From a virus (lineage: Duplodnaviria; Heunggongvirae; Uroviricota; Caudoviricetes), in IMG/VR virus record IMGVR_UViG_3300014205_000195, positions 28,184 to 92,183 of that record: 64,000 bases of DNA; one strand, given 5' to 3'. The position numbers and the translations under genes were made by a program. The notes below the pieces were generated by a model, which saw only the letters and a program-made list of their open reading frames with translations, ran no database searches and had not been told where the DNA came from. Shown here piece by piece: positions 4,843-44,737 of the stretch (positions are counted from its first letter, which is position 1; each line of letters opens with the position of its first letter).

Positions 4843-5034
4843 TCACCGCCCCGCCAGGTACCTGTCCACGACGGCCATTATCTGATCGTGCGCGGACGAC
4901 GCCTTCCTGAGCATGGACATGTTGGGGTCACCGCTCGAATCGCTCGGTACCATCCTCATCAGGGCCGCGTCTATCTCGCTCACGAGCTCCTGCCGCGTCA
5001 TCACTCGGCCCTGGTCCCATATAGACCTGCTCAT
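4843..5034 (-). CDS. hypothetical small protein (63 aa)
   Basis: ORF track; stop overlaps start region of next gene. Confidence 0.35.
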   Translation of the reverse strand: MSRSIWDQGRVMTRQELVSEIDAALMRMVPSDSSGDPNMSMLRKASSAHDQIMAVVDRYLAGR

Positions 5035-7997
5035 GCCGGCCCCCCGCCCAGCGCGAAGTTGCGCGATTCGCCGGCCGAGACCAGCCTCACGCTGCCCATG
5101 GACACCGGCGTCGTCTCCACTGACGGCACGCCCCTCGCCTCCAGATCCATGCCTGGCTCGTCGTCCTCATACCGCAGCGTCATGTGCGGCGTGTACCCGT
5201 GCGTGTGATCCACCGGCACGCCGGCGGCCGTCAGGGCCCTCACCAGGTCCGCCCTGAACTCCGACAAGCCCGGGACGTCCATCAGCGCGACGATTGGGGC
5301 GCGTCCTGGGGCGTTGAACCGCCCGACGCCGCCCACCGTGCCGCTGAGCGGTCCCGCCGACGCGCATACGGCCTCCACCGCGCGGACGGCGGCCTCCATC
5401 AGCCCGGCGCCAGTCAGGTCCCGCTTAGCGTCGTCCGTGAGATACGCGATCGTGACGTGCAGCTCGTTCGGCGGCTCCCCGCCGTCCACCGCCAGCCTCG
5501 TCGCGAGCTCCCGGTCGGGGAACCACGCGATCATGGCGCCCGGGTCGGCGTCGGCCGATATCTCCCTGTCGTCGTATCTGCCCGGCAGGTTCTCCGGGCC
5601 GCCCTTGTCCTCGTCGTCGGGGCCCTGTATCGTCACGCCCTTGCTCTCGGTCGACCCGAGGAGGACCTCCGCCTGCCTGACGTCCTCGTACGTCCCGTCG
5701 GCGCCGGCGCGCTCGATTATCTCGTGCTCCGGCTCGTCGCCGAACTTGACGCACGCACCCAGCCTCAGACCGTCGACTATGGCCTCGGCGTCCTCGTGCA
5801 GCGCGTCCACCGCCGCGAGGATGATCGGGTCGAGCGCGTCGCGATCGCGGACGGCCCTCTCGAGCTCCGAGCGGACCATCTCCACGACGTCCGCCCCGAA
5901 GCCTGACTTGGACAGCTTCGAGCCGACGTCGATGCCCAGGTCGGCGGCTGCCGACAGGACGTCAGACGTCCACAGCGCAGCGTCTCGCTCGCGGAGCGGG
6001 CGCACGGTGGTCGCCTTCCTCAGCGCCAGACCGAGCTCGTTGAACAGGGCGCCGTCGCCGGCGGCTGACGCCGACCTCTGCAGCCCGGAGATGAGCTTGG
6101 TGGCGTTCACGTACCCGTGCTCGACGGGGAACCCCGTGCCGTCCACCCATATCAGCCAGTCGCCTCGGTCGGCCCTCGCCGGGCCGCCCATCCACGTCAG
6201 CGCCGGCGGAGGCGCACCCTTGTCGAGGGCGGCGAGCACGGCGAACGCCGGCATCCTCAGGCTCGGCTCCGCTATGTGGATGGCCTTGTCGACTACGTCA
6301 GTTATCGCGTTGAACAGGAACGGCGTCTGCGGCGTCGAGAGCTTCGGCGTCCTCACTGGCTCCGACAGGGCGGGCTCCTTCCTGTCGTCGCTGCCATCCA
6401 CTATCTCGTACGCCCTGCCGGCGAAAGCGTCCGCTGGCATGGACTTCTCCATGCGCTTCTCCGGCGTCGCGGGCTCGAGCTCGTCCTCCTCGCCGCCCTC
6501 CATGTCGCGGAGCTTGGTGTAGTACCTCGGGTCCTCCGCCAGGTGGTCGCGCACGATGTTCGCGATCGAGTCCATGTCGCCGCCCACCGTCTCGTAGTGC
6601 TCAGACGACTCGGCCTCAAGGCCCTCGTCGAACTCGTCGACGCCGTTCTCGAGTCGCGGCCCGCTGATGGCCTCCATGACTATGTCGAGCGTGGCGGCGA
6701 GCTCGTCCCTGACGCCGGGGTTGTCGCTCAGGTCGCTCGGGTCCCACCACGCGAGCGACTCCACCATGTCGCCCCCCGGGTCGTCTGGGTTGTCTGCGTG
6801 GTCGCGCGGTCCCGCTATCGGGACGTCTGCCTCAGACTCCACGGTGTACACGAACCCGGCGTAGACGCCGTCGGGGGTCACCCACCTACCGGTCAGCTTG
6901 CCCGGCGGCAGCGGACACCCAGTCTCCTCCGACCACTCCCGCCTGGCGGCCCACGGGAGGGACTCCGAATCGCCGTCCCTGTGGCCGCCCGGGAACTCCC
7001 ACTTGCCCGCGGCCGCGTCGTCCTCGTTGCCGATGAGCGCCCGCTGCAGCATGAGCACGCGGCCGCTGTCGGCGGCCCTCACGGCCAGCCCGGCGACCTG
7101 CGGGCCGTCTGCGACCTCCGCCGGCGCCGACGCGCGCCGACCGGCCGCGTCCCGCGCGTGCCCGCGCGGCCTGTGCGACTCGACGTCGCCACGGCCGCTG
7201 CGCCTATGGTGCGCCGTGGACCCGTGCTTGTCCTTGTGCTTGTCGAGGAACCCGGCCGGACCTGTAGCCGTCTGTCGCCACGTCTGTATGCCGCCTGGCG
7301 TCTTGGCCTGCCGCTTCGCGGCCTGCGACAGCGCCTTCATGGCCTGCCCAGGTGTCACCGGGCACACGCCGTCCAAGCAGAACGCCGACTGCGCGAACTC
7401 GCCTGCGACATCGAACGACTTCGAGATGATGGTGAACTTGGCGTCAGGGTTGACGGGCGTCTCACAGATTGTGATCTCGTACAGCACGACCTCGTCGATC
7501 ACCCAGAAGCAGGTGCCTCCCTGGCACTCGTGCCTCCTGGACTCGAACGGCGCGTCCGCGGAGATGGAGAAGCTGGCCATCTTTCCGGACATGATGTCCT
7601 CGATGACCTTGTCCACCACCGGCGGCCTGTACTTGTCGGTCCTGACCTTGACCACCGCGAACAGGCCTATGTCGTCGACCTTGGTCTCATACACCTGACC
7701 GGTGCGCGGGTCCTTCCAGCTGCGCAGCACCTCGCCAACCTGCACGTTGCTGTGCAGCAGATTGGCGTTGCGGTACTTCGGGTTGGCCATGAACCTCGGG
7801 AGGTCCCTCGCCAGCGCGCGCTTGGTGATGACGTGCTTCTCGCGGTCCACGACCTGCGGCGACGCGTAGCCGGCGACCACCACGTCCGGTATGTCGCCGT
7901 CTCCCTTGTGCAGCACGGTCAGCTGGCCGTAGCCGCTCAGCGGGTACTGCGGGACCGTGCCGGTGACTATCCTATCCCAGGCCCTCGAAGCTATCAT
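5031..7997 (-). CDS. Multidomain fusion: N-terminal HK97-type prohead protease-like domain, central Nudix hydrolase domain, C-terminal 2H phosphoesterase (LigT-like) domain
   Basis: N-terminus resembles the Caudovirus prohead protease family. Nudix box GKWEFPGGHRDGDSESLPWAARREWSEETG is present. The C-terminus has two H-x-T motifs (HVTIAYL and HMTLRY) of the 2H phosphoesterase fold. Confidence 0.75.
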   Translation of the reverse strand: MIASRAWDRIVTGTVPQYPLSGYGQLTVLHKGDGDIPDVVVAGYASPQVVDREKHVITKRALARDLPRFMANPKYRNANLLHSNVQVGEVLRSWKDPRTGQVYETKVDDIGLFAVVKVRTDKYRPPVVDKVIEDIMSGKMASFSISADAPFESRRHECQGGTCFWVIDEVVLYEITICETPVNPDAKFTIISKSFDVAGEFAQSAFCLDGVCPVTPGQAMKALSQAAKRQAKTPGGIQTWRQTATGPAGFLDKHKDKHGSTAHHRRSGRGDVESHRPRGHARDAAGRRASAPAEVADGPQVAGLAVRAADSGRVLMLQRALIGNEDDAAAGKWEFPGGHRDGDSESLPWAARREWSEETGCPLPPGKLTGRWVTPDGVYAGFVYTVESEADVPIAGPRDHADNPDDPGGDMVESLAWWDPSDLSDNPGVRDELAATLDIVMEAISGPRLENGVDEFDEGLEAESSEHYETVGGDMDSIANIVRDHLAEDPRYYTKLRDMEGGEEDELEPATPEKRMEKSMPADAFAGRAYEIVDGSDDRKEPALSEPVRTPKLSTPQTPFLFNAITDVVDKAIHIAEPSLRMPAFAVLAALDKGAPPPALTWMGGPARADRGDWLIWVDGTGFPVEHGYVNATKLISGLQRSASAAGDGALFNELGLALRKATTVRPLRERDAALWTSDVLSAAADLGIDVGSKLSKSGFGADVVEMVRSELERAVRDRDALDPIILAAVDALHEDAEAIVDGLRLGACVKFGDEPEHEIIERAGADGTYEDVRQAEVLLGSTESKGVTIQGPDDEDKGGPENLPGRYDDREISADADPGAMIAWFPDRELATRLAVDGGEPPNELHVTIAYLTDDAKRDLTGAGLMEAAVRAVEAVCASAGPLSGTVGGVGRFNAPGRAPIVALMDVPGLSEFRADLVRALTAAGVPVDHTHGYTPHMTLRYEDDEPGMDLEARGVPSVETTPVSMGSVRLVSAGESRNFALGGGPA

Positions 7998-10910: not shown

Positions 10911-11486
10911 CTACTTCGGCAACCCTGCGATCGCCATCACCGCCTTCATGACCCGGATCTGCTTCACGCAGTCCTCGTCAGCCACATGGCCCACCAGGCC
11001 GTCGCCGGCAGTCTTGTAGGCGAGCGTCGCCGCGTCCGACGCGGCCTGGTTCAGCCTGAACAGCGTCCCCAGGTCCCTGGCGCCCTTGCGTCCCCATGCC
11101 GGCGCTATGCCGACGTGCGTGTACAGGTCGGACAGGAGCCTCTGGTCGTAGTACATGTGGCTCCACATGGCCGTGCACTTGTTCTCGCGGTAGAAAGCGT
11201 TGGCGGCGCGCAGGGCGTCGCCCAGCGGCAGCTTCGGCTCGGCCAGCAGCACGGCCCCCTGGGCCTCCGCCGACTGCTGCGCCCACCACATCACAGTGTC
11301 TACCGATGGCTTGCCGGGCGTGGACTTCGGGTCCACGTTGATGAGCGTCCTGGCGATCGGCTCGAAGTCGACCGTATCGTAGGTCACCATGCCTATCTGG
11401 AGAAGGCACAGGTCGCTCAGGCCCTCGGTGTCCACCATGCACTCAATTGGCATAATATATGCCCGCCACCTTCTCGCAATGCTCAC
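10911..11486 (-). CDS. DnaQ-like DEDDh 3'-5' exonuclease (191 aa)
   Basis: VDTEGL (Exo I) ... H...D motifs; paralogous to 37186..37782 (shared TVMWW motif). Confidence 0.6.
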   Translation of the reverse strand: MSIARRWRAYIMPIECMVDTEGLSDLCLLQIGMVTYDTVDFEPIARTLINVDPKSTPGKPSVDTVMWWAQQSAEAQGAVLLAEPKLPLGDALRAANAFYRENKCTAMWSHMYYDQRLLSDLYTHVGIAPAWGRKGARDLGTLFRLNQAASDAATLAYKTAGDGLVGHVADEDCVKQIRVMKAVMAIAGLPK

Positions 11487-11871
11487 GCACAGCAGCTATC
11501 GCCTCGTCCAGCGTCATCGGCGGCCCGGCGTGGTACCGCATCCACGGGCTCAGCGGCGCGGACGTGTCCGGCATCGCGAGCGCAACCTTGACGTACCCCA
11601 GGTCGTACGCGTAGTGGACCTCCATGGCGGTGCCGACAGACGGCCCGTCGTGGTAGACCAGCATCGCCTCGCATATCGAGATGTTCTTCTTATCGTTGCG
11701 AACTATCCGCTCGTAGTCCACGTCCTCGCGGCCGCGGTAGTCCCTGTCCATGGGGTCCACCACGATGGCGACGTCCCGCAGCTCCCGCTTCGCAGTCTCC
11801 CGCCAGGCTGAGCACTCCTCATCGCTGCGGCCGAATATCGGGCCCGCCAGGTAAACCTTCGGTCTGCGCAT
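11443..11871 (-). CDS. nucleoside 2-deoxyribosyltransferase-like / Rcl-family nucleotide N-glycosidase (about 143 aa)
   Basis: PKVYLAGPIFG motif (YLAGPxF of the Nuc_deoxyrib_tr family); start set at ATG 11871 with an AGGGA SD 5 nt upstream, because the longer ORF-track N-terminus overlaps tRNA genes. Confidence 0.6.
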   Translation of the reverse strand: MRRPKVYLAGPIFGRSDEECSAWRETAKRELRDVAIVVDPMDRDYRGREDVDYERIVRNDKKNISICEAMLVYHDGPSVGTAMEVHYAYDLGYVKVALAMPDTSAPLSPWMRYHAGPPMTLDEAIAAVREHCEKVAGIYYAN

Positions 11872-11958
11872 CTGCGTCCCTGTAGTCTGGGTTGATGCCG
11901 TGGAGGGATAATCACACAGGGTGACAAAACGTGTTGCCATTACACCAGATGGGCCCGT

Positions 11959-12047
11959 TGGTGCCCACCGCAGGACTCGAACCTGCAACTTTCCTTTAGA
12001 AGAGGAAGAAGTAACCCTACGTTCGCCTCTCCGCGGCATCTCGTTCC
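11959..12047 (-). tRNA. tRNA-Arg(TCT)-like element with unpaired acceptor stem (possible pseudo-tRNA)
   Basis: T-arm GCAGG-TTCGAGT-CCTGC and anticodon arm TTCCT-CTTCTAA-AGGAA plus encoded CCA, but the 3' acceptor strand GGTGGGC has no complementary 5' strand. Confidence 0.4.
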
Positions 12048-12049
12048 TA

Positions 12050-12123
12050 TGGTACCGACACCGGGACTCGAACCCGGGCCAACGCATTATGAGCGCGTCG
12101 CTCTGCCTCTAAGCTATGTCGGG
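12050..12123 (-). tRNA. tRNA-Met/Ile2(CAT)
   Basis: anticodon loop CTCATAA; T-arm CCGGG-TTCGAGT-CCCGG; CCA encoded; C1:U72 mismatch at top of acceptor. Confidence 0.65.
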
Positions 12124-12126
12124 GTG

Positions 12127-12202
12127 TGGTGGGCCCGCAGGGATTCGAACCCTGAACCTACCGGTTATGAGCCGGGTGCTCTGACCGTTGAGCTACGGGC
12201 CC
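12127..12202 (-). tRNA. tRNA-Met(CAT)
   Basis: anticodon loop CTCATAA; perfect acceptor GGGCCCG/CGGGCCC; T-loop TTCGAAT; CCA encoded. Confidence 0.75.
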
Positions 12203-12203
12203 T

Positions 12204-12290
12204 CGGAACTGCGTGCCTGATTCGAACAGGCTACTCGGCAGACCGGGCGGTTTCGGTCGTTTCATCCCACTCTCCGTTGCCCCAACCACC
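12204..12290 (-). other. tRNA-like element (canonical T-arm GCCTG-TTCGAAT-CAGGC) with no recognisable acceptor pairing or anticodon arm
   Basis: T-arm read on minus strand at 12215..12231; no canonical cloverleaf could be folded by hand. Confidence 0.3.
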
Positions 12291-12344
12291 AGATCGGGCA
12301 ACAGCCAGACGCGCGTTCCCACCGCGCCGCCGCAGCTTCGTCAA

Positions 12345-13011
12345 TCACCAGTCGCCGGCCATCCAGTCGGACAGCCTCCACCGCCTGCCTGTGCGATGGT
12401 CGAGCGCCTGGTCATCCTTGCACCGGTAGGTGCGTACCTTGTCGCCCCTCTCGCCGCGGCCGATCTGCCCGCGGCGATCGCCGTTCACTGATGCCGCCGC
12501 CTCCGACTTGCCGGCATCCGTCAGCCTCGCTTCCAGCACCGACAGGGCGAGCTGCCTGTTATGGTACTGCGACCGCGTGGACTCTATCCGGACGCGCTCG
12601 CCGGTCGGCCTGTGCACCACCACGACGGCGGACTCCGTCTTGTTCCTATGCTGCCCTCCGGGGCCGTCGCCGCGCGTGACCGAGACGTCCACATCCCGCA
12701 TGTCCAGGCGTGCCTCGGCGCCATCCTGTGGCCGCAGGACGGCCACGGTGACCGTGGACGTGTGCACCTTGCCGTTCTTCTCGTTAGGCGGCACCCTCTG
12801 CCACCTGTGGCCGCCACCCTCGCCCAGGAAGTCCGAGGCGTCGTCGCCGCTCACCTCCAGTGCGATGAACCCTGGCCTCTCCTCTATCGGAGAGAGGTCA
12901 AAGACCCCTCCGGTCGCAGCGGCGGGCGTAGGCCCTCGCCATCTCCGCAACCAGTGCCTTGGCCTCGTCGCCGCCCTCGGCGGCCCGTATCTCGATGAGC
13001 AACGTATCCAT
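12345..13011 (-). CDS. PrfH/RF-H-like peptide chain release factor (GGQ domain, lacks RF domain 1 and the SPF motif); translation appears to need a +1 programmed frameshift at CUU UGA C (codon 38)
   Basis: ATG at 13011 (AGGA 9 nt upstream) opens MDTLLIEIRAAEGGDEAKALVAEMARAYARRCDRRGL, which aligns with the start of RF2 domain 2 and then hits TGA. The +1 frame continues DLSPIEERPGF...GDGPGGQHRNKTESAV...RTYRCKDDQALDHRTG to the stop at 12345. The shift site GGAGGGG-U-CUU-UGA-C matches the prfB autoregulatory frameshift motif. The ORF-track N-terminus (12899..13241) is Arg/Pro-rich and out of frame. Confidence 0.7.
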
Positions 13012-13029
13012 GTGCTAATCCTGTCGTGT

Positions 13030-13103
13030 TGGTCGGACCATCGGGAATCGAACCCGAGCCTGGGACTTATCAGATCCCCGTTTTGCCACTCAACTATGGT
13101 CCA
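13030..13103 (-). tRNA. tRNA-Ile(GAT)
   Basis: anticodon loop CTGATAA; AC stem GGGAT/GTCCC; T-loop TTCGATT; CCA encoded. Confidence 0.75.
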
Positions 13104-13111
13104 ACTGGATA

Positions 13112-13180
13112 TGTCGCCAGGCGGACTCGAACCGCCTCGACGGTCGCCCGTCTTTATCCTTGGCTGGCCAGGCCGACGAC
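13112..13180 (-). ncRNA. tRNA-like RNA module (acceptor stem + T-arm + small GCGA-tetraloop hairpin, no anticodon arm); Y-RNA-like candidate adjacent to rsr
   Basis: Acceptor GTCGTCG/TGGCGAC (two G-U pairs), T-arm GGCGG-TTCGAGT-CCGCC, internal hairpin GACGG-GCGA-CCGTC. Only 69 nt, no 7-nt anticodon loop with U33, and no encoded CCA. It lies in the 175-nt gap between tRNA-Ile and the rsr stop. Confidence 0.4.
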
Positions 13181-13279
13181 ACGTGGCGGAAGGAGGAGCA
13201 CTCGAAGCCCAGCCCGGAGACCGGACCGCTCCGTTTAGCAAACGGGCCCGGCGCGCCTGTCCGGTTCACCTTCCATCGG

Positions 13280-14794
13280 CTACGACCCAGCGAGCGCCGT
13301 CCCAGCGATGGCTTGGACGAGCGCGTCCTGGCCGCCGCCGCTCTCGACGATGCCCATGAGGTCGAAGATCTTCTCGCTGAAGCCGGCCAGCGCCACGACA
13401 CGCTTCTCCGGGAACATCAGCGTCCCGTAACCGGCGAGGTCGATGCTGTACAGCATCGGGTCGGCGCCGGTCGCCTTCTTGTACGCCTTGAACGCGCCCT
13501 TGGTGGGACGGCTGTCGCCGTACGAGTCCTCCGCCCAACCCTGCATGTCCGACAGGATGATGATCCTGTCGTACGCGGTCCCCGTCTTCGTGATGAGATT
13601 GAACGCCGCGTGGAAGTTGGTCCCGCCGTAGTTGAACCGCAGCGACTCAGCCGCCGCAAGCACCGAGGACCCGGTGCCGAGGCTGTGGTACGACGCGTCT
13701 GTGCCGAACAGCACGAGGTCAGCACCGGTGGCGCGGACCAGGGCGGCCGCGAACAGCGCGCCCTTTTGGGCGGCACTGGCTGCGTCCCTCCCCTTCGTCC
13801 ACGTCATCGACGACGAGACGTCGAGGATGACGAGCGTCTTTCCGGGGAGGTCCGGGATGTTCCCGAGCGCGATGTCCGCCGCCCGCTCCACCGCGCCGAT
13901 CGCCTTGGCGGTCCCAGGGACCGACTTCAGCGTGTCACGTGCGACGGCAAACCTGAACGGGAGCACGAGACTGCCACGGATCCGCCGCTCGTCCGTCAGC
14001 TGCTCGCAGGCGATGTCGACAGCGTCCGGGGCGTCCTTCACGATGTTCCGCAGGTTGCGGAGGAGCGCGAAGTAACCGAGCTTGTTGTCACGGAGCAGCT
14101 GCTCCCAGGCGGCGCCCTTCGTGGCGCCGGTGCCCTCGTCGGACTGCCCAGCCTGCGTGAGGGCGACCTCCCACGTCTCCGCCGGCTTCAGCGTGCCGCC
14201 CATGAGGGCGGACAGGGCCGGCGTCGGCCGCGGGTGCGTCAGGTTGACCAGGTCGAGCATGTTGATGTCGCGCCCGGTGCCGAGGTACTTGGCCAGCTGG
14301 TACTCGTCGAGGCCCTCGATGGCCCGCGCGAACCCCTTCCGCATGGCGGCCGGCTCGTTCTTGCCGATGTTAGCGCGGTAGTAGCCGAGGATCTCGAACA
14401 TGTCGTCCGGGCGCCGGACGATGCGTTCGAAGAACGTCTTCGTCCACTGGGCACCCTTGACGCGCGCGGCGAGCTCCGCCGCCACGACGTGTGAGATAGA
14501 ACGCATGCCGAACTCTCGGCGAGCGTACAGGGCCGCCTTGGCGGCGAACTCCGGGTCGACCATATCGAGGACCCGCTTGAGCTGCTCGCGGCCGGCCGCC
14601 TCCGAGCGGTAGAACTTGTCATCCATGAAAGACGTAAGGAGCATCGAGACCAGCTCGAGATTGTCGGATTCCTTGTAGGCCCGCCCTCCGGCGAGGTTGG
14701 CGACCTTCGGCTTGGCGATCTTTACCGCCGGTGCCGGTGCCTTCTCCTGGAGCTTGTTGTACTTCGCCATCTCTGTCTCTCCTAAGCGCTGCAT
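13280..14794 (-). CDS. rsr: Ro60/Rsr orthologue (TROVE domain + C-terminal vWA domain)
   Basis: 504 aa; TROVE-like N-terminal region; vWA MIDAS motif LVILDVSSSM; architecture identical to bacterial Rsr. Confidence 0.8.
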   Translation of the reverse strand: MQRLGETEMAKYNKLQEKAPAPAVKIAKPKVANLAGGRAYKESDNLELVSMLLTSFMDDKFYRSEAAGREQLKRVLDMVDPEFAAKAALYARREFGMRSISHVVAAELAARVKGAQWTKTFFERIVRRPDDMFEILGYYRANIGKNEPAAMRKGFARAIEGLDEYQLAKYLGTGRDINMLDLVNLTHPRPTPALSALMGGTLKPAETWEVALTQAGQSDEGTGATKGAAWEQLLRDNKLGYFALLRNLRNIVKDAPDAVDIACEQLTDERRIRGSLVLPFRFAVARDTLKSVPGTAKAIGAVERAADIALGNIPDLPGKTLVILDVSSSMTWTKGRDAASAAQKGALFAAALVRATGADLVLFGTDASYHSLGTGSSVLAAAESLRFNYGGTNFHAAFNLITKTGTAYDRIIILSDMQGWAEDSYGDSRPTKGAFKAYKKATGADPMLYSIDLAGYGTLMFPEKRVVALAGFSEKIFDLMGIVESGGGQDALVQAIAGTALAGS

Positions 14795-14868
14795 GGTCCC
14801 GAAGGGATAAGCGGTGGTGGGCGTTTCATTGACCAGCGTTCTGCCGTCTGAACTACACGCCGCCGAAG

Positions 14869-14933
14869 CAGGCGAGGTTGGACTCGAACCAACGACATCC
14901 GGTTTCGATAAGAAGTAGCCCTCTACCTCGCCT
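14869..14933 (-). ncRNA. 65-nt tRNA-like element (perfect 7-bp acceptor AGGCGAG/CTCGCCT, T-arm GTTGG-TTCGAGT-CCAAC, 4-bp D-like hairpin, no canonical anticodon arm, no CCA)
   Basis: Read on minus strand; located just upstream of rsr inside a 380-nt non-coding region. Confidence 0.4.
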
Positions 14934-15176
14934 CTCCAGGACTTGCTGCGCTCAAAATGGTGACCGGGGGATTGGTCTGTCTGGGAGTCAACTGAGCGGA
15001 TTTAGAGTCCGATGTACGAAGTAACCCAGACGGTCGCCTCCCGACCGACCCTTTGCTCTGTGGAAGTATCTGAGGCAGGGATAGTTCCAGACGGGGGCTG
15101 TTGGAGAACACACAAGTTCGAAGTACCCGTCACGGTCGCCTCTGCGTCCGACACTCACATGATACCGAGACCTACG

Positions 15177-15252
15177 TGGTTGGCCCGGGGGGATTCGAAC
15201 CCCCGACCTCCCGCATGTCGAGCGGGGGCTCTAGCCGCTGAGCTACGGGCCA
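15177..15252 (-). tRNA. tRNA-Val(GAC)
   Basis: anticodon loop TCGACAT (C at position 33); perfect acceptor TGGCCCG/CGGGCCA; T-arm GGGGG-TTCGAAT-CCCCC; CCA encoded. Confidence 0.75.
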
Positions 15253-15261
15253 ACTTTTTGC

Positions 15262-15336
15262 TGGTTCCCCCGGAGGGATTCGAACCCTCGTACCCGGTGC
15301 TTCAAGCCGGTGCTACGCCGTCTCAGCTACAGGGGA
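15262..15336 (-). tRNA. tRNA-Phe(GAA)
   Basis: anticodon loop TTGAAGC; D-stem GCTG/TAGC; T-loop TTCGAAT; CCA encoded; C31:A39 mismatch. Confidence 0.65.
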
Positions 15337-15342
15337 ACTTGG

Positions 15343-15650
15343 ACCGGCCGCCTGGCAGTTGGACGCCGTCTCAGGCTGGCCGGTTTCTATGCCACGGACG
15401 CGCAGGGCCTCCGCAAAGTAGCGATCGCTCGCCGAGCGATCGCGGTCGTCCACGACACTGACGTCGCACGCCAGCGGCGGCCACGACGTCGGTGGAACCT
15501 TCCCCGTGGCCCGCCACCTGAGGTACTCGACGACCCTACCGTGCGTAAACGCACCGGTGGCGAGGTCAGTATCGTACGTGGTGATGCCGTCGGACACGAA
15601 CACGCAGTGATCATCGCGCTGGAAAATCGTCAGTTTCACGACCGTCTCCG
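15343..15650 (-). CDS. possible small hypothetical protein between tRNA-Phe and tRNA-Leu
   Basis: Trimmed from ORF track 15313..15696, which overlaps tRNAs at both ends; weak. Confidence 0.2.
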
Positions 15651-16125: not shown

Positions 16126-16206
16126 TGCTCCGGGAGGGACTCGAACCCCCATGGCTCGCGGGGCCACACGCGTTGCATGATACATTTCCAATTCTGTCAC
16201 CGGAGT
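16126..16206 (-). other. class-II-sized tRNA-like element of uncertain identity (T-arm GGGGG-TTCGAGT-CCCTC, acceptor with A1:C72 mismatch, no clean anticodon arm)
   Basis: D-arm and variable-arm-like hairpins fold, but the anticodon loop lacks U33 and its stem is mostly G-U pairs. Confidence 0.3.
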
Positions 16207-16571: not shown

Positions 16572-16805
16572 CGTCACTGTCTCTCTGGGGAAGTCTTCCC
16601 TCCCCATGATGAGAACGAAGCACCGGCAGCACACGTAGGCCGTCAGCCCGTGCGCCGGCCGGCGCCGGTCGTCAAACATCCGCTCCTCGCCCACCTTGTG
16701 GGTCGCAGGCGCTCGACACATGGAACATCGCTCGCCGGCACACGCGGCGGACACCCAATGCTCGACACTCACGACATCCTCGGGATCATGCTGATCAGCT
16801 GCCAC
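16563..16805 (-). CDS. hypothetical Cys-rich small protein (80 aa)
   Basis: ORF track; CxxC pairs. Confidence 0.35.
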   Translation of the reverse strand: MAADQHDPEDVVSVEHWVSAACAGERCSMCRAPATHKVGEERMFDDRRRPAHGLTAYVCCRCFVLIMGREDFPRETVTLG

Positions 16806-17458
16806 CGGTGCTCGCGCCAGTTGAACGCCTGCGTCATGGCGCCGTCTGGCTCGACGAGCCCGCCCATCCTGTCACGCGGCGTCGCCACCTCGTCCAGCAT
16901 GACGTCGTTCAGCTCCAGCCGCTCCACTAGCTCATGCACCTTCATGCCCTGGCACGCAGAGTGCCCGAACCGGCTCTGCGCGATGGCGTTGATGCTGTTC
17001 CTAACGGCATCTTTCTGTCGCCAGAGGAAGTAGTTCTCCACCTCTGTAGGGTCCGGTATTGTCCAGACCCGCGAATCGAACGTCGCGAGCCGTCTCCACT
17101 CAGGCATGGCCGCGTTGAAGCACGCGGTCGCTATCGACGCCGACACGCTAGCGAGCTTCTGGACGTTGTTGTCGAACATGGCCTCCGTCTCTACCGTCTC
17201 GAAGTCGGTCATCAGAAGGCTCACCTCGTCGCTCTGCACGTACGCAAACCTCGCGTTCTGCATCGTGGTGACGAGCCCTGAGGCGACCGCGTCCATCGCG
17301 TTCGTTATCATCCGGTCGAACGGCTTCTCGAACGGGCGACACAGCGTGTGGAACGCGCGTCCGTCCACCCTGATGAGCGTGTACGTGCGGCGCGGCAGCA
17401 TGTACCGGGTCCTGTCCTCGTACTGCCTCTTCATCCGATCGCCTAGCTCGTCGCGCAT
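16769..17458 (-). CDS. Thg1-like protein (tRNA-His guanylyltransferase family, 3'-5' nucleotidyltransferase used in tRNA 5'-end repair)
   Basis: YTLIRVDGRAFHTLCRPFEKPFD...AYVQSDEVSL matches the Thg1/TLP signature (RIDGRxFHKF...KPND...SDE); start trimmed to the internal Met because the ORF-track N-terminus overlaps tRNA-Arg. Confidence 0.7.
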   Translation of the reverse strand: MRDELGDRMKRQYEDRTRYMLPRRTYTLIRVDGRAFHTLCRPFEKPFDRMITNAMDAVASGLVTTMQNARFAYVQSDEVSLLMTDFETVETEAMFDNNVQKLASVSASIATACFNAAMPEWRRLATFDSRVWTIPDPTEVENYFLWRQKDAVRNSINAIAQSRFGHSACQGMKVHELVERLELNDVMLDEVATPRDRMGGLVEPDGAMTQAFNWREHRWQLISMIPRMS

Positions 17459-17481
17459 CACACCAGCCTCGCTGTGGTCTT

Positions 17482-17556
17482 TGGTACCCTCGGCAGGACT
17501 CGAACCCACATCCTGACGTTCGAAGCGTCGCATCCTATCCGTTGGACGACGAGGGC
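17482..17556 (-). tRNA. tRNA-Arg(TCG)
   Basis: anticodon loop CTTCGAA; T-loop TTCGAGT; CCA encoded; G1:U72 wobble. Confidence 0.7.
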
Positions 17557-18294: not shown

Positions 18295-19185
18295 CTACTC
18301 CGGCTCCTGCTCCCCCCGTCCGGGTACGTACCTCGTCTTGCCATACCCGCCGGCCCTGATCCTGTCGTACTTGAAGTACTCGCACAGCCAGTGCTCTATC
18401 GAGCTCAGGTGGAGGCGCTGGAGGCCTGGCGCGGCGACCGACTGGAAATCGAGCTCCAGCCTGTGGTACGCCTCGTCCTGGACGTCCCTGAGCCGCCGCA
18501 TGGCGCCCATGGCCTCGGTCGGCTTGAGCTTGTACCCGAAGACGACCTCGAGCCCGCCGAGCGCGCCAGGGCCGGCGTGCGCCCACTCGTCCACGCCGAC
18601 GGTGACGACTGGGTCCGGGCCGTACGTGAGGTCCTGCACCATCTGGTACCCGAGGAAGCTGCCGACGCCGTCCACGCAGGTCATCCACTCATAGGCGCCC
18701 TCCAGCGAGGGCGCGGCCTTGAGCTTCACCGCCAACGCCTCGGACATCCACGCGACCGTCGGGATCGCCTCCGTCACCGCCTTGAACGACGGCGCCATGT
18801 GGGCGGACGTGAACACCGGCTTCTTGGACTTCTTCCGTTCGGCCATCCTGGCCACCACGTCCCGCGGCTCCAGGTCGGCCATGCTCACGAAGCCGCCGAG
18901 CACGTCCCGCCACGAGTCCACGTTGTTCAGCTCGCGGTAGAACCACACGTTCCACACGATGTCCGCGTCGGACAGCCCCGCCGCCCTCGCCTCTGTGATT
19001 CTGTCTATCAGGAACACGGTCCCTGCGTCCAACTCCCTGAACACGTTCGTGAACTTCCACGAGGAGAAGACCGGGTCGTCCGTCCACGGGGCGGACGCTC
19101 CTGAGTCCCTCACGTGCCATATGCGCTGGCGCTCGTGCGCGGTCCTGAAGAAGTCCTCTAGGGCAGCAGTCCAGTCGAGCCGCAA
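18295..19185 (-). CDS. hypothetical protein (296 aa), conserved-looking, function unknown
   Basis: ORF track; globular composition (…FTNVFRELDAGTVFLIDRI…); no family recognised with confidence. Confidence 0.6.
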   Translation of the reverse strand: MRLDWTAALEDFFRTAHERQRIWHVRDSGASAPWTDDPVFSSWKFTNVFRELDAGTVFLIDRITEARAAGLSDADIVWNVWFYRELNNVDSWRDVLGGFVSMADLEPRDVVARMAERKKSKKPVFTSAHMAPSFKAVTEAIPTVAWMSEALAVKLKAAPSLEGAYEWMTCVDGVGSFLGYQMVQDLTYGPDPVVTVGVDEWAHAGPGALGGLEVVFGYKLKPTEAMGAMRRLRDVQDEAYHRLELDFQSVAAPGLQRLHLSSIEHWLCEYFKYDRIRAGGYGKTRYVPGRGEQEPE

Positions 19186-22310: not shown

Positions 22311-22397
22311 TGGTACGGACGGGGGGAGTCGAACCCCCACCCCCTCTCGAGGACCGGACTCTCATTCCGGCGCGTCTGCCATTCCAGCCACGTCCGT
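22311..22397 (-). tRNA. tRNA-Leu(GAG) (class II)
   Basis: anticodon loop ATGAGAG; AC stem CCGGA/TCCGG; perfect acceptor ACGGACG/CGTCCGT; CCA encoded. Confidence 0.75.
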
Positions 22398-41973: not shown

Positions 41974-42879
41974 CTAGAAGTCCCCGTCCGCCACCTGCAG
42001 GCAGGTGAGCCCGAGCGATCTCCAGAGCTGGACGACCTGGTTCCGGTCGTCCAGGACGAACCGGATGTTGTACTTGCCGCGGATGTGGGCGTCGAAGATC
42101 TCGGCCTTCACGACCGCGTCCTTCCGGCTGTCGCCCGTCCTCCGCATGTGGAGCGTGTAGTCCTTGATGGCAGCCGGCCCCTCGATGAACTCGACGGTCT
42201 GGTCGCGGTAGAGGCTCTCGCGCCCGGAGACGAAGATGATGTCGGTATCCCCTGAGAACCGCTTCAGCATGTGCCTCACTGGCCTGTTGGGGACGTCCAG
42301 GTGCGCGGTCGACGCGTTGTACGGGCTCCTGTGGTTGAGCTCGCAGGCGCACCCGTGCTCCTTGCAGAACAGGGCCAGCGTCCCGTCGAGGTCGCAGATG
42401 ATCGCCCACCGAAGGCCGGGCGTGTGCGCGTACTGCTCGAGCCTCCACGGCTCGCCGTAGTAGCGCCGAGCCATGTCTCTGATGACGGCCTCGCCGACCG
42501 GCCTGGCCCGCCGCGAGTCCCGCTCGATGGCGTCCTCAACGTCGACGTCCATCGTCTTGATCTCGACGCGGACGCCGAATACGTTGGCCAGCTCGTACAG
42601 GCGGCGCAGGTGCCGGTCCTCGAGGTTCGTGTCGTCCACGATGACCGAGCGGCCGGCCACGAGCGCCTCCGTGATCAGCCGGTCGCGCTCCGGCTCGACC
42701 TCGGACTTCTCGCGGTGCTTGTTCCAGCGGCCACTGTCCGGGCCGAGGCCGAGCCGCTCGCGGATATCGTCCTTGTTCACGCGGGTCCAGACGTCCGGGT
42801 CGCTGGCCTCGATGGCCCTGGCGAGGGTCGACTTGCCGGAGGCCGGCAGCCCGCGCATGATGGTCATGGTCTGCCTCAA
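41974..42879 (-). CDS. pnk: polynucleotide 5'-kinase / 3'-phosphatase (T4 Pnk-like: P-loop kinase + HAD phosphatase)
   Basis: Walker A GLPASGKST; C-terminal HAD motif I ICDLDGTL. Confidence 0.8.
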   Translation of the reverse strand: MRQTMTIMRGLPASGKSTLARAIEASDPDVWTRVNKDDIRERLGLGPDSGRWNKHREKSEVEPERDRLITEALVAGRSVIVDDTNLEDRHLRRLYELANVFGVRVEIKTMDVDVEDAIERDSRRARPVGEAVIRDMARRYYGEPWRLEQYAHTPGLRWAIICDLDGTLALFCKEHGCACELNHRSPYNASTAHLDVPNRPVRHMLKRFSGDTDIIFVSGRESLYRDQTVEFIEGPAAIKDYTLHMRRTGDSRKDAVVKAEIFDAHIRGKYNIRFVLDDRNQVVQLWRSLGLTCLQVADGDF

Positions 42880-43682
42880 AACAGGTTCCTCCTCACCTCG
42901 ATGATGAAATCGTTGACGGGCTCGACCTCGGTCGCCTTGCGGTCCGCCTCGCGGTACGTCCTGTCGAGCCGACGGGCGTAGTCGTCGGTGATCCTGATGA
43001 TCTCGTGCGGCTGCAGCGGGACGTCAAACGTCTCCGAGCTCAGCCCGGCCTTCCACGCCCTGAGCACGCTCTCGATGTCCGAGCCGACCACGCTCATGCT
43101 GAACGAGCCCGTGCGGATGAGCTCCTCGGCAATGTAGAGCGTGCGGAGCCACGCGACCGCGTACTTGTTGTAGCGCCCGTCCTTGTTGTCAAGCATCTTC
43201 GTGCGCTGATTGAACCCGTAGCCGCGGAAGGCGCTGTAGACGCCCTCGGTGCTCCAGACGTGCTCGAACAGGCCAAGCAGGCGCAACGTGTAGCCGGTGG
43301 CCGTCCACGAGTCGTCGTTCGACGAGACCGGCGACTTGAACGCCTCCAGGACGGACGGGTTTGACTTGCACGCCAGGAACAGGAAGTGCCCGAGCTCCCA
43401 CGACGTGTCGTCGACGGCCCCCTCGATCCACTGGCTGTTCCCGACCCTCGGCCGCTGCCCGTTCTCGGGGAGGACGAAGAAGTCCCTGGTGCGGGCGGCG
43501 TAGACGCCGCGGTAGTCGATGTCTGACGCCGGAGTCGCCAGCCCGTGGGCGTGGCTCCCGACGATGGTCTTGAGCAGAATCACTGTCCATCCTCCAACCC
43601 GTGGTAGTGCATGCCGTCCCACTCGTCCAGCCTCACGATCGGCTCGCCGTACTGGACTGGCGCAGGACGGCAGTCCTGCCAC
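42876..43682 (-). CDS. Pol-beta-superfamily nucleotidyltransferase
   Basis: GSHAHGLATPASDIDYRGVY (hG[GS]...D[IV]D motif); 268 aa. Confidence 0.6.
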   Translation of the reverse strand: MAGLPSCASPVRRADREAGRVGRHALPRVGGWTVILLKTIVGSHAHGLATPASDIDYRGVYAARTRDFFVLPENGQRPRVGNSQWIEGAVDDTSWELGHFLFLACKSNPSVLEAFKSPVSSNDDSWTATGYTLRLLGLFEHVWSTEGVYSAFRGYGFNQRTKMLDNKDGRYNKYAVAWLRTLYIAEELIRTGSFSMSVVGSDIESVLRAWKAGLSSETFDVPLQPHEIIRITDDYARRLDRTYREADRKATEVEPVNDFIIEVRRNLF

Positions 43683-44737
43683 ACCTTCTCGGTGCTCTTA
43701 CCGTCAAGCAGCAGCATGACGAGGCCCGGGTGCTTCGTTGCCTTGGCCTGCTCGGCTATCCAGCGGCGATCGTCGCCGCCCGGCCGCCTGGCCAGGATGT
43801 CCCTAAGGTCGACGGCCGCGGCCGCCAGCCTCTCGTCGTACCAGCCACGTATGGTGGCCTCCGTCGTCTCGACCCAGTCGACGAACCAGGCAGGCGCCTC
43901 GTGCCGGATGGAGTCGGCGTAGCCGTCGACGCCGCCGCGCATCGCGCGCCATATGGTCGCCGCGTTCGTGTCGAACACGTGCTTGTTCGCGATCAGGTAG
44001 TCGTCGAACTTCACCTTCAGCTTCAGGCCTGAGCCGGTGTACCTGATGACGAAGCCCTCCCTGTTCGGCTCCTGGAGGAGCTTCAGGTGGAGCGGGTTCT
44101 CGTCCGAGCCGGCGATGCCGAAGAACTCGGGGAGGTGCGGCCACTGGTCGTCGCGCGGCGGGAACTCCTGGCCGGTCGCCTTGTCGACGGTGCCGAGCAG
44201 GACTAGCCTCTCCTCGTCGTAGCGCACGACGGACGGGTTCTCCGGGTACACGATCTCGAAGACGTAGGTGACGTCCCTGTCGATGGACGGCCACAGGCCG
44301 GCGTACTGCGAGCGCAGGAGCCGGTTGGCGACCGCCGACTGCTTCGTGCGGAAGCTGCGCCGCGTGGCGACGTACGGCTCGTCGTCCATCCAGTACATCA
44401 CGCCGAGCGAGCCGTCGACCTTCTCCCACACCTCGTACGGGCCGGTCGGCAGCGGGCCCATGTGCTCCTCGTAATCGAAGAACTTCCCGAATGGGCGGGC
44501 CACGACGTTGCCGACGCCGTCCGTCACCAGGCCGCGGCACATGAGCGTCACGCGGTCCCACTGCCTGGAGTTGACGGCCAGGCTGGAGTAGCACCACGAG
44601 CTTAGGTCGGTCCGCGGATGCCGGCCGCGGTCGAGCAGGCCCCTGGAATGGTAGTCCTCGAGCTCGGCGATGTCGACGCGGGGCACGGCGCGATGGAGGG
44701 CCATCCCGGTCTCTTCCTTGGTTCTCATCTTGGCCAT
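43580..44737 (-). CDS. ATP-dependent RNA ligase (Rnl-family)
   Basis: Nucleotidyltransferase motif I EKVDGS (KxDG); 385 aa; adjacent to pnk. Confidence 0.7.
   Translation of the reverse strand: MAKMRTKEETGMALHRAVPRVDIAELEDYHSRGLLDRGRHPRTDLSSWCYSSLAVNSRQWDRVTLMCRGLVTDGVGNVVARPFGKFFDYEEHMGPLPTGPYEVWEKVDGSLGVMYWMDDEPYVATRRSFRTKQSAVANRLLRSQYAGLWPSIDRDVTYVFEIVYPENPSVVRYDEERLVLLGTVDKATGQEFPPRDDQWPHLPEFFGIAGSDENPLHLKLLQEPNREGFVIRYTGSGLKLKVKFDDYLIANKHVFDTNAATIWRAMRGGVDGYADSIRHEAPAWFVDWVETTEATIRGWYDERLAAAAVDLRDILARRPGGDDRRWIAEQAKATKHPGLVMLLLDGKSTEKVWQDCRPAPVQYGEPIVRLDEWDGMHYHGLEDGQ

What the first reader, a model, noticed from the sequence alone, without database searches (positions are those of the whole stretch)
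12345..13011. PrfH-like release factor gene carrying an RF2-type +1 programmed frameshift site (GGAGGGG U CUU UGA C)
A clean ATG (13011, with SD) opens 37 codons whose product (MDTLLIEIRAAEGGDEAKALVAEMARAYARRCDRRGL) aligns with the start of RF2 domain 2. The 38th codon is UGA. The +1 frame carries the rest of a GGQ release-factor domain down to 12345. The shift site is SD-like GGAGGGG, one U, then CUU UGA C, which is the canonical prfB autoregulatory slippery motif. Bacterial prfB has this site in domain 1. PrfH homologues are not known to have it, and this protein lacks domain 1 and the SPF motif, so the gene could be either an autoregulated phage RF variant or a ribosome-rescue factor. It sits inside a tRNA island next to rsr.
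Basis: partly seen in the sequence, partly recalled or inferred. Interest (0 to 1): 0.9.

Follow-up and report, generated by a model that had tools for sequence, protein, structure and literature searches.

The report
Frameshift-gated short RF1-like release factor
A phage gene for a shortened RF1-type translation release factor can only be read in full if the ribosome slips +1 at the same signal that bacteria use to regulate RF2. The same arrangement recurs in more than a hundred related genes from huge phages, megaplasmids and myxobacterial genomes, and I found no paper in the searchable library that describes it.

Summary
On the minus strand, ATG 13011 opens 37 codons that end at UGA 12900-12898. 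The +1 frame then carries 184 more codons to 12345. The junction is GGAGG-GGU-CUU-UGA-C (12911-12897), which is the prfB-type +1 shift cassette.

The interpretation needs correcting. The 221-aa trans-frame product is RF1-like, not RF2- or PrfH-like:
- NCBIfam scores are 195 bits for RF1, 117 for RF2 and 83 for PrfH.
- An AF2 model superposes on ribosome-bound RF1 with TM 0.92.
- The protein lacks domain 1 and keeps the GGQ motif and the RF1 decoding residues, except that PxT reads PPN.

The shift site is not an error. 119 non-identical homologues need the same +1 shift. They come from jumbo-phage contigs, Myxococcota genomes (including the Minicystis rosea chromosome) and tRNA-array elements. 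The slippery codon is CTT in 119/119, and rare CGG-AGG codons build the SD-like element. The stop is mostly TGA, sometimes TAG or TAA. Sister lineages carry an in-frame TGA or a second, independent cassette about 10 codons downstream.

Best reading: synthesis of an RF1-type factor is gated by termination failure at an RF2-specific codon, so the gene senses host RF2 rather than regulating itself. This has not been tested experimentally. I found no description of it in the literature I could search. I class it as a new variant of a known kind.

The parts
12898..13011 (-). Zero-frame ORF: ATG plus 36 further sense codons (MDTLLIEIRAAEGGDEAKALVAEMARAYARRCDRRGL), then UGA. It encodes strand beta-1 and helix alpha-5 of RF domain 2, including the GGDEA tip that reads the first stop-codon base in RF1.
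   Evidence: The alignment to Thermus RF1 residues 107 onwards is. The AF2 model gives strand 2-12 and helix 14-35 with pLDDT 88-97.
12897..12911 (-). +1 frameshift cassette: SD-like GGAGG, 3-nt spacer GGU, slippery CUU, UGA stop and +4 C.
   Evidence: unique in the window, 0 of 100 shuffles. The identical 15-mer is at the same codon in 9 other phage contigs whose proteins are 38-54% identical. The logo over 52 unique viral genes is. The codon-bias test over 119 genes is.
12345..12899 (-). +1-frame ORF segment: GAC (Asp38) through 184 codons to TGA. It encodes the rest of domains 2/4, the codon-recognition loop QRVPPNEKNGKVHTS (PPN at 12791-12783), GGQ (12659-12651) and the switch loop GRGERGDKVRTY.
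13019..13022 (-). AGGA Shine-Dalgarno-like element 7 nt upstream of ATG 13011. An in-frame TAG at 13015-13017 closes the frame upstream.
   Evidence: read directly from the sequence.
13030..13103 (-). tRNA-Ile(GAU) 18 nt upstream of the start codon. The gene is embedded in a co-oriented tRNA array and is probably co-transcribed with it (inference).
   Evidence: No promoter-like site was found in 11800-15400.
12127..12202 (-). tRNA-Met(CAU), the next gene downstream, 143 nt after the stop codon.
22311..22397 (-). Phage-encoded tRNA-Leu(GAG). This is the isoacceptor that decodes CUU and re-pairs on UUU in the prfB mechanism. Its role here is inferred.
   Evidence: The role follows from established prfB mechanism knowledge and from PMC10885494.
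13280..14794 (-). Ro60/TROVE + vWA protein (rsr-like), the upstream neighbour. This is context only; it is not shown to be functionally linked.
   Evidence: TROVE 2e-18.

Best explanation
The locus encodes a 221-residue class-I release factor of RF1 type. It has domains 2, 3 and 4 only, with no domain 1 and no C-terminal helix. Its synthesis requires a programmed +1 ribosomal frameshift.

Proposed mechanism. Ribosomes start at ATG 13011 and translate 37 codons. With tRNA-Leu on CUU in the P site and UGA-C in the A site, they either terminate through host RF2, giving a 37-aa peptide, or slip one base onto UUU and continue with GAC. The slip is helped by the internal GGAGG pairing with the anti-SD three bases upstream. 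The full product reads ...RRGL-DLSPIEER....

Regulatory logic. The product keeps the RF1 decoding residues, so it should read UAA and UAG but not UGA. The gate is therefore set mainly by host RF2 activity rather than by the product itself. Less RF2-mediated termination at this site means more of the phage's RF1-type factor. The phage ends about 43% of its ORFs in TAG, the RF1-only stop, which gives it a reason to bring extra RF1 activity.

Shown computationally: the gene layout, the cassette, homology and predicted fold across the junction, deep conservation of the cassette, and synonymous-codon selection.

Inferred: that ribosomes actually shift, that RF2 competes at the site, the codon specificity of the product, and the benefit to the phage.
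For: 1. Layout and cassette.

2. The trans-frame product is one continuous RF1 homologue.
- NCBIfam RF1 matches residues 4-220, 195 bits.
- phmmer gives Thermotoga and Thermus RF1 at 4e-41, aligned through the junction.
- The AF2 model has mean pLDDT 84.5, with 90-97 around residues 21-50. Its best Foldseek hits are ribosome-bound RF1 at TM 0.92 and rmsd 1.8 A.

3. Decoding residues equivalent to Thermus RF1 G116, E119, Q181, P184, H193 and T194, and the switch loop, are kept.

4. Conservation.
- The identical 15-mer sits at the same codon in 9 other phage contigs that are 38-54% identical in protein.
- 56 of 80 classified viral-family genes and 67 of 78 genome loci need a +1 shift at CTT-stop.
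- In the NJ tree the shifted genes form one large clade.

5. Selection at synonymous sites in 119 unique genes.
- CTT is used in 119/119, against 9.6% of other Leu codons in the same genes.
- AGG is used in 68/119, against 6.7% of other Arg codons.
- CGG is used in 83/119, against 19.8% elsewhere.

6. Continuous-frame relatives encode the predicted junction, for example P0048 ...AARRGLDVEL.

7. A second cassette, GGGGG-CAY-CTT-TGA-C, arose about 10 codons downstream in another subclade. Sister genes have an in-frame TGA there or at the RF1 Trp position.

8. The window's stop usage on 68 minus-strand ORFs is TGA 33, TAG 29, TAA 6, with no sign of recoding.

9. Cassette parameters match prfB: AGGGGG, 3 nt, CTTT, TGA, C (PMC12421855).
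Against: - There are no experimental data for any family member.
- The window's tripeptide is PPN, not PxT. Its specificity is therefore untested and could be altered. About a third of the family has N, S or G at that position.
- 18 of 119 cassettes use TAG and 3 use TAA, so 'RF2 sensing' cannot be the whole logic.
- Roughly a quarter of cassettes lack a clear SD-like element.
- Continuous-frame homologues are common in the protein database, so the gate is dispensable.
- The host is unknown. If it is an actinomycete, the prfB cassette works poorly there: 6.6% in M. smegmatis.
- TAG-rich stop usage is a property of this phage, not of the family, where TAG is 22-24%.
Confidence: 0.7

Rival explanations
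1. True prfB-style autoregulation. The short factor has broadened or changed specificity, for example through Thr->Asn in the tripeptide or His->Gln at the stacking position. It reads the stop codon in its own cassette, UGA included, and so limits its own synthesis.
For: - The window has PPN instead of PxT, and about a third of the family has a non-Thr residue at that position.
- All three stop codons occur in cassettes, as would be expected for an omnipotent factor.
- Non-Thr variants are found mostly with TGA cassettes: 32 of 88 with TGA against 1 of 15 with TAG, p = 0.03 uncorrected.
Against: - Most TGA-cassette genes keep the RF1-type PPT together with Q181 and T194 equivalents.
- The association is weak and has no phylogenetic correction. 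Two further TAG+PPN genes were missed by the regular expression.
- A factor that accepts G at both positions 2 and 3 would risk reading UGG. This is an inference from RF1/RF2 structural knowledge.
Confidence: 0.12
2. The frameshift is real but acts only as a fixed attenuator or a historical accident. It sets a low, constant output of a potentially toxic factor and carries no information about RF levels.
For: - Continuous-frame relatives are frequent.
- Some cassettes lack the SD-like element.
- RF over-expression is harmful in B. subtilis (PMC12421855).
Against: - A stop codon in the A site is retained in 119/119 shifted genes. It is also retained as an in-frame TGA or TAG in nested and sister lineages at the same or nearby columns.
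- The cassette arose at least twice.
- The stop plus C context is the RF-sensitive element of the prfB mechanism.
Confidence: 0.1
3. PrfH/ArfB-like ribosome-rescue factor. A domain-1-less GGQ protein releases peptides from ribosomes damaged or stalled by host RNases, working with the phage's tRNA-repair genes.
For: - The architecture without domain 1 resembles PrfH.
- Neighbours include Ro60, Thg1, a 2H phosphoesterase and an exoribonuclease. T4-type Pnkp and Rnl1 lie in the same window.
- RF-1 genes in mycobacterial tRNA arrays have been discussed as rescue factors (PMC5966550).
Against: - The PrfH model scores 83 bits against a cut-off of 166.65. The ArfB match is only the GGQ loop.
- The fold is closer to RF1 (TM 0.92) than to PrfH (0.66).
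- The stop-codon-reading residues and the switch loop are conserved across the family.
- No RtcB was found among the ORFs scanned, and no conserved neighbour exists in 80 genome loci.
Confidence: 0.05
4. Artefact or decay: a sequencing or assembly indel, a pseudogene, or two separately translated polypeptides.
For: Gene callers split the gene into a 37-aa ORF and a 169-aa ORF. RefSeq splits a relative into two CDS.
Against: - Two assemblies give an identical sequence.
- The same one-base offset occurs at the same codon in 119 non-identical genes, with CTT invariant.
- Both frames are under protein-level conservation.
- No start codon is conserved in the +1 frame. 45 of 119 genes have none upstream, and in the window the first downstream start is 15 codons after the junction.
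Confidence: 0.03

Closest known systems
prfB (RF2) autoregulatory +1 programmed frameshift of bacteria
   Same: The cassette grammar is the same: SD-like purine run, 3-nt spacer, CUU, stop (mostly UGA), then C. There is no downstream structure. The gene encodes a class-I release factor.
   Different: - The host gene is an RF1-type paralogue without domain 1.
- The site lies at the helix alpha-5 / strand junction of domain 2 (codon 38), not in domain 1 (codon 26 in E. coli, from my own knowledge).
- The product should not read the UGA, so the feedback is heterologous.
- TAG occurs in 18 of 119 cassettes. It was never seen in 8,164 prfB genes (PMC12421855).
- The cassette evolved independently and at two positions.
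Mimivirus/Megavirus class-I release factor gene with internal frameshift plus readthrough (PMC3521657)
   Same: A virus-encoded termination factor whose translation needs recoding at internal stop codons. The authors interpret it as a bacterial-like autoregulatory device.
   Different: That factor is an eukaryotic/archaeal eRF1-type protein in amoeba viruses, with different signals. Here the factor is a bacterial RF1-type protein with the canonical prfB cassette.
PrfH (RFH), the RtcB-linked release factor acting on damaged ribosomes
   Same: A short class-I RF paralogue lacking domain 1. It is found sporadically and is linked to RNA-damage conflicts (PMC6514570).
   Different: PrfH is a different clade (83 bits against a cut-off of 166.65; TM 0.66). 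Here there is no RtcB partner, canonical decoding residues are retained, and I found no report of a frameshift in PrfH.
RF1/RF2 genes reported in huge and alternatively coded phages, and RF-1 in Mycobacterium tRNA arrays
   Same: The gene family and contexts are the same: huge phages and tRNA arrays. Some in-frame-TGA relatives sit next to a suppressor tRNA, as in 'code-change modules'.
   Different: Those papers list the genes but do not mention the truncation to domains 2-4 or any frameshift or stop-codon gate. The window's phage shows no recoding and no suppressor tRNA.

Membership tests
prfB-type +1 PRF cassette (recoding signal) | In-frame stop with homology continuing in the +1 frame | tested here: met
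prfB-type +1 PRF cassette (recoding signal) | Slippery CUU immediately 5' of the stop, followed by C | tested here: met
   CUU-UGA-C at 12903-12897. CTT is used in 119/119 homologues. The +4 base is C in 36 of 52.
prfB-type +1 PRF cassette (recoding signal) | Internal SD-like element 3 nt upstream of CUU | tested here: met
   GGAGG at 12911-12907 with spacer GGU. It is built from rare CGG-AGG codons in most homologues. The prfB spacing is given.
prfB-type +1 PRF cassette (recoding signal) | The stop codon is one that the encoded factor itself reads (autoregulation) | tested here: not met
   The product is RF1-type by sequence and predicted fold and the stop is UGA. Actual specificity was not measured.
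prfB-type +1 PRF cassette (recoding signal) | Frameshifting demonstrated and responsive to RF level | not testable with these tools
   Needs a reporter assay or mass spectrometry.
RF1 (prfA) | PCRF plus RF-1 domains with GGQ | tested here: met
   GGQ is at residues 118-120.
RF1 (prfA) | PxT tripeptide in the recognition loop | tested here: not met
   The window has P-P-N (12791-12783). 81 of 137 family genes with a readable tripeptide have x-x-T.
RF1 (prfA) | Other decoding residues (Thermus G116, E119, Q181, H193, T194) and the switch loop | tested here: met
   Alignment to 4v63-type RF1.
RF1 (prfA) | Full length with domain 1, and a score above the NCBIfam equivalog cut-off | tested here: not met
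   The match covers only model positions 106-330 of 347. Scores are 195 bits against cut-off 400 and 189 against 423. tRNA-Ile and an in-frame TAG lie directly upstream.
RF1 (prfA) | Fold of domains 2-4 as in ribosome-bound RF1 | tested here: met
   TMq 0.92, rmsd 1.8 A to 9mtr/9mtq/4v63 RF1 chains.
RF2 (prfB protein) | SPF tripeptide, with the best profile match to RF2 | tested here: not met
   There is no SPF. RF2 scores 117 bits against 195 for RF1. TM to RF2 is 0.85-0.87.
PrfH | TIGR03072 score above the cut-off | tested here: not met
   83.4 bits against a cut-off of 166.65. PDB PrfH scores 51 bits and TM 0.66.
PrfH | Operon with RtcB | tested here: not met
   No RtcB was found among 30 window ORFs scanned with Pfam or PHROGs. 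Not every small ORF was scanned.
ArfB | GGQ domain plus a C-terminal basic tail, scoring above the cut-off | tested here: not met
   Only residues 101-131 match, at 29 bits against a cut-off of 100.

The most novel reading that the evidence does not exclude
A widespread and so far undescribed class of domain-1-less RF1 paralogues is found in jumbo phages, tRNA-array megaplasmids and Myxococcota chromosomes. Their synthesis is gated by recoding at an early internal stop codon. The usual form is a prfB-type +1 shift on CUU-UGA-C. Other forms use CUU-UAG or CUU-UAA, or an in-frame UGA. Together these make a trans-acting sensor of the cell's RF2 (or RF1) termination capacity. The device evolved independently of prfB and at least twice within the family.
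Probability: 0.5. Interest if true: 0.85.

Novelty: new variant of a known kind. Interest (0 to 1): 0.8.

Why it matters
Programmed +1 frameshifting at CUU-UGA-C is the textbook autoregulatory device of RF2. A 2025 survey of 12,753 bacterial genomes concluded that RF1 genes do not use it and that TAG never occupies the site (PMC12421855). RECODE's CUU-stop cases are all prfB (PMC10885494).

This family shows the same device recruited independently into RF1-type genes. The stop codon in the cassette is one the product should not read. TAG and TAA variants exist, and some relatives use an in-frame UGA instead.

If the shift is confirmed, three things follow:
- It gives a natural system for testing cross-regulation between the two termination pathways.
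- It helps explain why phages and tRNA-array elements carry release factors.
- It exposes a systematic annotation error: hundreds of such genes are split or truncated in public databases.

Cultivable carriers make it experimentally tractable. They include Minicystis rosea DSM 24000, Variovorax sp. SRS16 and Thiobacillus denitrificans DSM 12475.

Tried and rejected
- **Source of the window.** megablast of the locus against 50,697 phage records found nothing. Exact look-ups of the Ro60 protein and of P0001 found no encoding contig. The source is known only as a 92-kb JGI contig and a Logan assembly of SRR6484325. The host could not be determined. A class II ribonucleotide reductase search gave only distant hits of 36% identity or less.
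- **Downstream stimulatory RNA structure.** A local hairpin follows the UGA in the window, but its z-score is -0.58. Across 123 homologues the mean z is -0.10, so I rejected it.
- **Conserved neighbour genes.** All-against-all BLAST of the flanks of 80 genome loci found only the RF gene itself shared. The ORF upstream in Minicystis has no Pfam hit.
- **Stop-codon reassignment in the window.** Same-frame ORF adjacency is no commoner after TAG than after TGA or TAA, and there is no suppressor tRNA.
- **Separate initiation of the +1 ORF.** No start codon is conserved.
- **Link between cassette stop codon and tripeptide, or local stop usage.** Only weak trends without phylogenetic correction.
- **Y RNA next to Ro60.** No Rfam hit at E <= 0.01, and the fold of the gap has z -0.75.
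- **Plasmid record.** Accession NZ_CP193795.1 is not in the plasmid collection.
- **Literature.** Six full-text searches and ten papers gave no description of a frameshift in phage or RF1-like release-factor genes. Subscription-only literature was not searchable.

Full report
**1. The observation**

On the minus strand, ATG 13011 is preceded by AGGA seven bases upstream and by an in-frame TAG one codon upstream. tRNA-Ile ends 18 nt before the start, so there is no room for an RF domain 1. After 37 sense codons comes UGA (12900-12898). The +1 frame continues from GAC (12899-12897) for 184 codons to TGA 12347-12345.

The junction reads GGAGG-GGU-CUU-UGA-C (12911-12897). This composite occurs once in the window and in none of 100 shuffles. 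CTTTGAC alone is at chance level. A Logan assembly of SRR6484325 is identical over 12.5 kb, cassette included.

**2. What the protein is**

The joined 221-aa sequence matches Pfam PCRF and RF-1. Against NCBIfam it scores:
- RF1: 195 bits, covering model positions 106-330 of 347.
- RF2: 117 bits.
- PrfH: 83 bits, against a cut-off of 166.65.
- ArfB: the GGQ loop only.

phmmer against PDB sequences gives Thermotoga and Thermus RF1 at 4e-41, RF2 at about 1e-27 and PrfH at 1e-12. The alignments run straight through the junction.

Residues equivalent to Thermus RF1 G116, E119, Q181, P184, H193 and T194 and the switch loop are present. The PxT tripeptide reads PPN (T186->N).

An AF2 model built on 45 continuous-frame relatives has mean pLDDT 84.5, with 90-97 around the junction. 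The junction falls between helix 14-35 and strand 38-45. Foldseek places the model on ribosome-bound RF1 (TM 0.92, rmsd 1.8 A), ahead of RF2 (0.85-0.87) and PrfH (0.66).

The gene therefore encodes an RF1-type factor reduced to domains 2-4. It is PrfH-like in architecture only.

**3. Is the shift site programmed?**

The best tblastn hit in phage records, the 485-kb LR745208.1, came in two pieces. It has the same 37-codon ORF, the same CGGAGGGGTCTTTGACC and the same +1 continuation.

An exact search for the 15-mer in IMG/VR gave 55 hits. Ten of them (9 distinct contigs) lie in RF homologues with the same two-frame layout, at 38-54% protein identity.

A profile-guided scan found 363 viral relatives. 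Of the 80 classified genes (77 of the 80 best loci kept, plus L001, L003 and the window itself):
- 56 need a +1 shift exactly 32 codons after the (I/V)EIR motif: 50 with TGA, 5 with TAG and 1 with TAA.
- 15 have an in-frame stop.
- 9 are continuous.

A scan of one genome per species found 228 relatives. Of 78 classified:
- 67 need the shift: 52 with TGA, 13 with TAG and 2 with TAA.
- 4 have an in-frame TGA.
- 7 are continuous.

Across 119 non-identical shifted genes:
- The slippery codon is CTT in all 119. CTT is 9.6% of the other 1,829 Leu codons in the same genes.
- The codon three positions upstream is AGG in 68. AGG is 6.7% of other Arg codons.
- The codon before that is CGG in 83, against 19.8% elsewhere.

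Synonymous choices are therefore being selected to build GGAGG three bases from CUU. The logo is CGGAGG(G/T)GT-CTT-T(G>A)(A>G)-C.

Other checks agree:
- No downstream structure is conserved.
- No start codon is conserved in the +1 frame.
- Continuous relatives encode the predicted junction, RRGL-D.
- In an NJ tree the shifted genes form one large clade with a few nested reversions.

Sequencing error, pseudogene and split-gene readings are excluded for practical purposes.

**4. A wider pattern**

Alignment shows three gate positions.
- **Site A** is the main-clade frameshift, RRGL|D.
- **Site B** is an in-frame TGA at the conserved Trp of RF1 (RGW).
- **Site C** lies about 10 codons downstream. 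Thiobacillus denitrificans DSM 12475 and two MAGs have an independent GGGGG-CAY-CTT-TGA-C cassette there. Sister genes, including one on a Cupriavidus plasmid, have an in-frame TGA at the same column.

Variovorax sp. SRS16 is an isolate with the standard code. It carries a GGC-TGA-CTC version inside a tRNA array on an 801-kb plasmid, and RefSeq splits it into two CDS.

Some in-frame-TGA phage genes sit beside a suppressor tRNA (L133, L136). Those fit the published 'code-change module'.

Three nested members of the frameshift clade keep a stop at the same codon but in frame (L058 and L064 with TGA, L059 with TAG).

The recurring element is therefore an early stop codon that must be bypassed.

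**5. Context**

The window is phage DNA. It encodes portal, terminase, ribonucleotide reductase, RecA, DnaB and primase. GC content is 65-68%. There are 39 co-oriented tRNAs for all 20 amino acids and no suppressor.

Around the RF gene lie:
- a Ro60/TROVE protein
- Thg1
- an Rv2179c-like exoribonuclease
- an AAA_28 ATPase
- a nucleoside deoxyribosyltransferase
- a NUDIX/2H-phosphoesterase fusion
- a 5-hmdU DNA kinase

T4-type Pnkp and Rnl1 lie further along. No RtcB was found.

28 of 55 viral shifted genes have three or more tRNAs within 6 kb. Only 4 of 67 genome loci do. The Minicystis rosea copy sits among ordinary chromosomal genes, a sigma factor and a GDSL lipase. No neighbour is conserved. 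The family is therefore not purely viral.

**6. Mechanism and logic**

The cassette matches the prfB signal, AGGGGG-3 nt-CTTT-TGA-C, which gives 53% shifting in B. subtilis. So the same kinetic competition between RF2-mediated termination and P-site slippage is the natural inference.

Because the product is RF1-type, the feedback is heterologous: RF2 activity represses an RF1-type factor.

The window phage ends 29 of 68 minus-strand ORFs in TAG, with no evidence of recoding. That gives it a plausible need for RF1 activity. This does not hold for the family at large, where TAG is 22-24%.

TAG cassettes (18 of 119) would be self-regulating or RF1-sensing.

The alternatives are true autoregulation through altered specificity (PPN, or Gln at the stacking position), a fixed attenuator, and a rescue role. 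They are weighed in the rivals section. None can be settled without experiments.

**7. Novelty**

- PMC12421855 examined 12,753 genomes. It found PRF only in prfB, never with TAG, and concluded that RF1 is not so regulated.
- PMC10885494 states that all CUU-stop +1 cases in RECODE are prfB.
- Papers on huge phages, jumbo phages, recoded phages, release-factor evolution and tRNA arrays mention phage or array RF genes but no frameshift or truncation.
- The nearest conceptual precedent is the Mimivirus eRF1-type gene with frameshift plus readthrough.

Within the searchable literature this is undescribed. I class it as a new variant of a known kind.

**8. Verdict**

| Item | Judgement |
|---|---|
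| Observation | Confirmed |
| Confidence that a programmed +1 shift makes an RF1-type factor | High |
| Confidence in the full RF2-gating model | About 0.7 |
| Interest | 0.8 |

Noticed in passing
window 14795-15176 (minus strand) and 16126-16206: The 380-nt non-coding gap just upstream of the Ro60 gene holds three repeats of GAGGCGA..GGG.UACUUCG. It also holds tRNA-like pieces: a T-arm GGUUCGAGUCCAACC with a 7-bp acceptor AGGCGAG/CUCGCCU, a hairpin with loop CUCUAAA, and a D-arm-like GUAGUUCAGACGG. ARAGORN and Rfam call no tRNA or Y RNA there. A weak tRNA hit of 30.5 bits lies at 16126-16206. These may be Y-RNA/YrlA-like partners of Ro60.
   Followed up: partly
window, 68 minus-strand ORFs: Stop-codon usage is TGA 33, TAG 29, TAA 6. 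That is 43% TAG in a 65% GC genome. Other high-GC loci of the family show 22-24% TAG. No sign of TAG reassignment was found.
   Followed up: partly
L216 (Thiobacillus denitrificans DSM 12475 scaffold), L193, L199: A second, independent prfB-type cassette (CGGGG(G/T)CAY CTT TGA CCT) lies about 10 codons downstream of the main-clade site. In L216 the gene sits inside a 26-tRNA array. Sister genes (L067, L072, L074, L119, L174) have an in-frame TGA at the same alignment column.
   Followed up: partly
L221 (Variovorax sp. SRS16 plasmid 2, NZ_LR594667.1, 61520-62224): An RF1-like gene in a tRNA array of an isolate's 801-kb plasmid has an in-frame GGC-TGA-CTC. RefSeq annotates it as 'hypothetical protein' plus 'peptide chain release factor-like protein'. 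It probably needs UGA readthrough.
   Followed up: partly
L133, L136 (IMG/VR): In-frame-TGA members of the family lie within 6 kb of a suppressor tRNA. This fits the published RF1 + suppressor 'code-change module' of TGA-recoded phages.
   Followed up: no
window 18295-19185 (minus strand): A 5-hmdU DNA kinase (PF18723, 183 bits). It suggests the phage hypermodifies thymidine in its DNA.
   Followed up: no
window 5031-7997 (minus strand): A 988-aa fusion protein combines a prohead-protease-like S78 segment, NUDIX, DUF5661 and a 2H (LigT-like) phosphoesterase.
   Followed up: no
window 41974-42879 and 43580-44737 (minus strand): A T4-type polynucleotide kinase-phosphatase and RNA ligase 1. This is the classic tRNA-repair pair against anticodon nucleases. 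They add to Thg1 (16769-17533) and an Rv2179c-like 3'-5' exoribonuclease (10911-11486).
   Followed up: no
L001 (LR745208.1, 485-kb phage): This frameshifted homologue has lost the recognition loop: RVQRTSNGRIHSS, with no PxT. Yet it keeps GGQ and the perfect cassette, so some family members may no longer read stop codons conventionally.
   Followed up: no
L147 (Minicystis rosea DSM 24000 chromosome CP016211.1, about 5.21 Mb): A finished myxobacterial chromosome carries a frameshifted copy (CGG AGT GGG CTT TGA CCT) among ordinary genes. There are no tRNAs or phage genes within 3 kb. Most of the 80 best genome hits are Myxococcota MAGs.
   Followed up: partly
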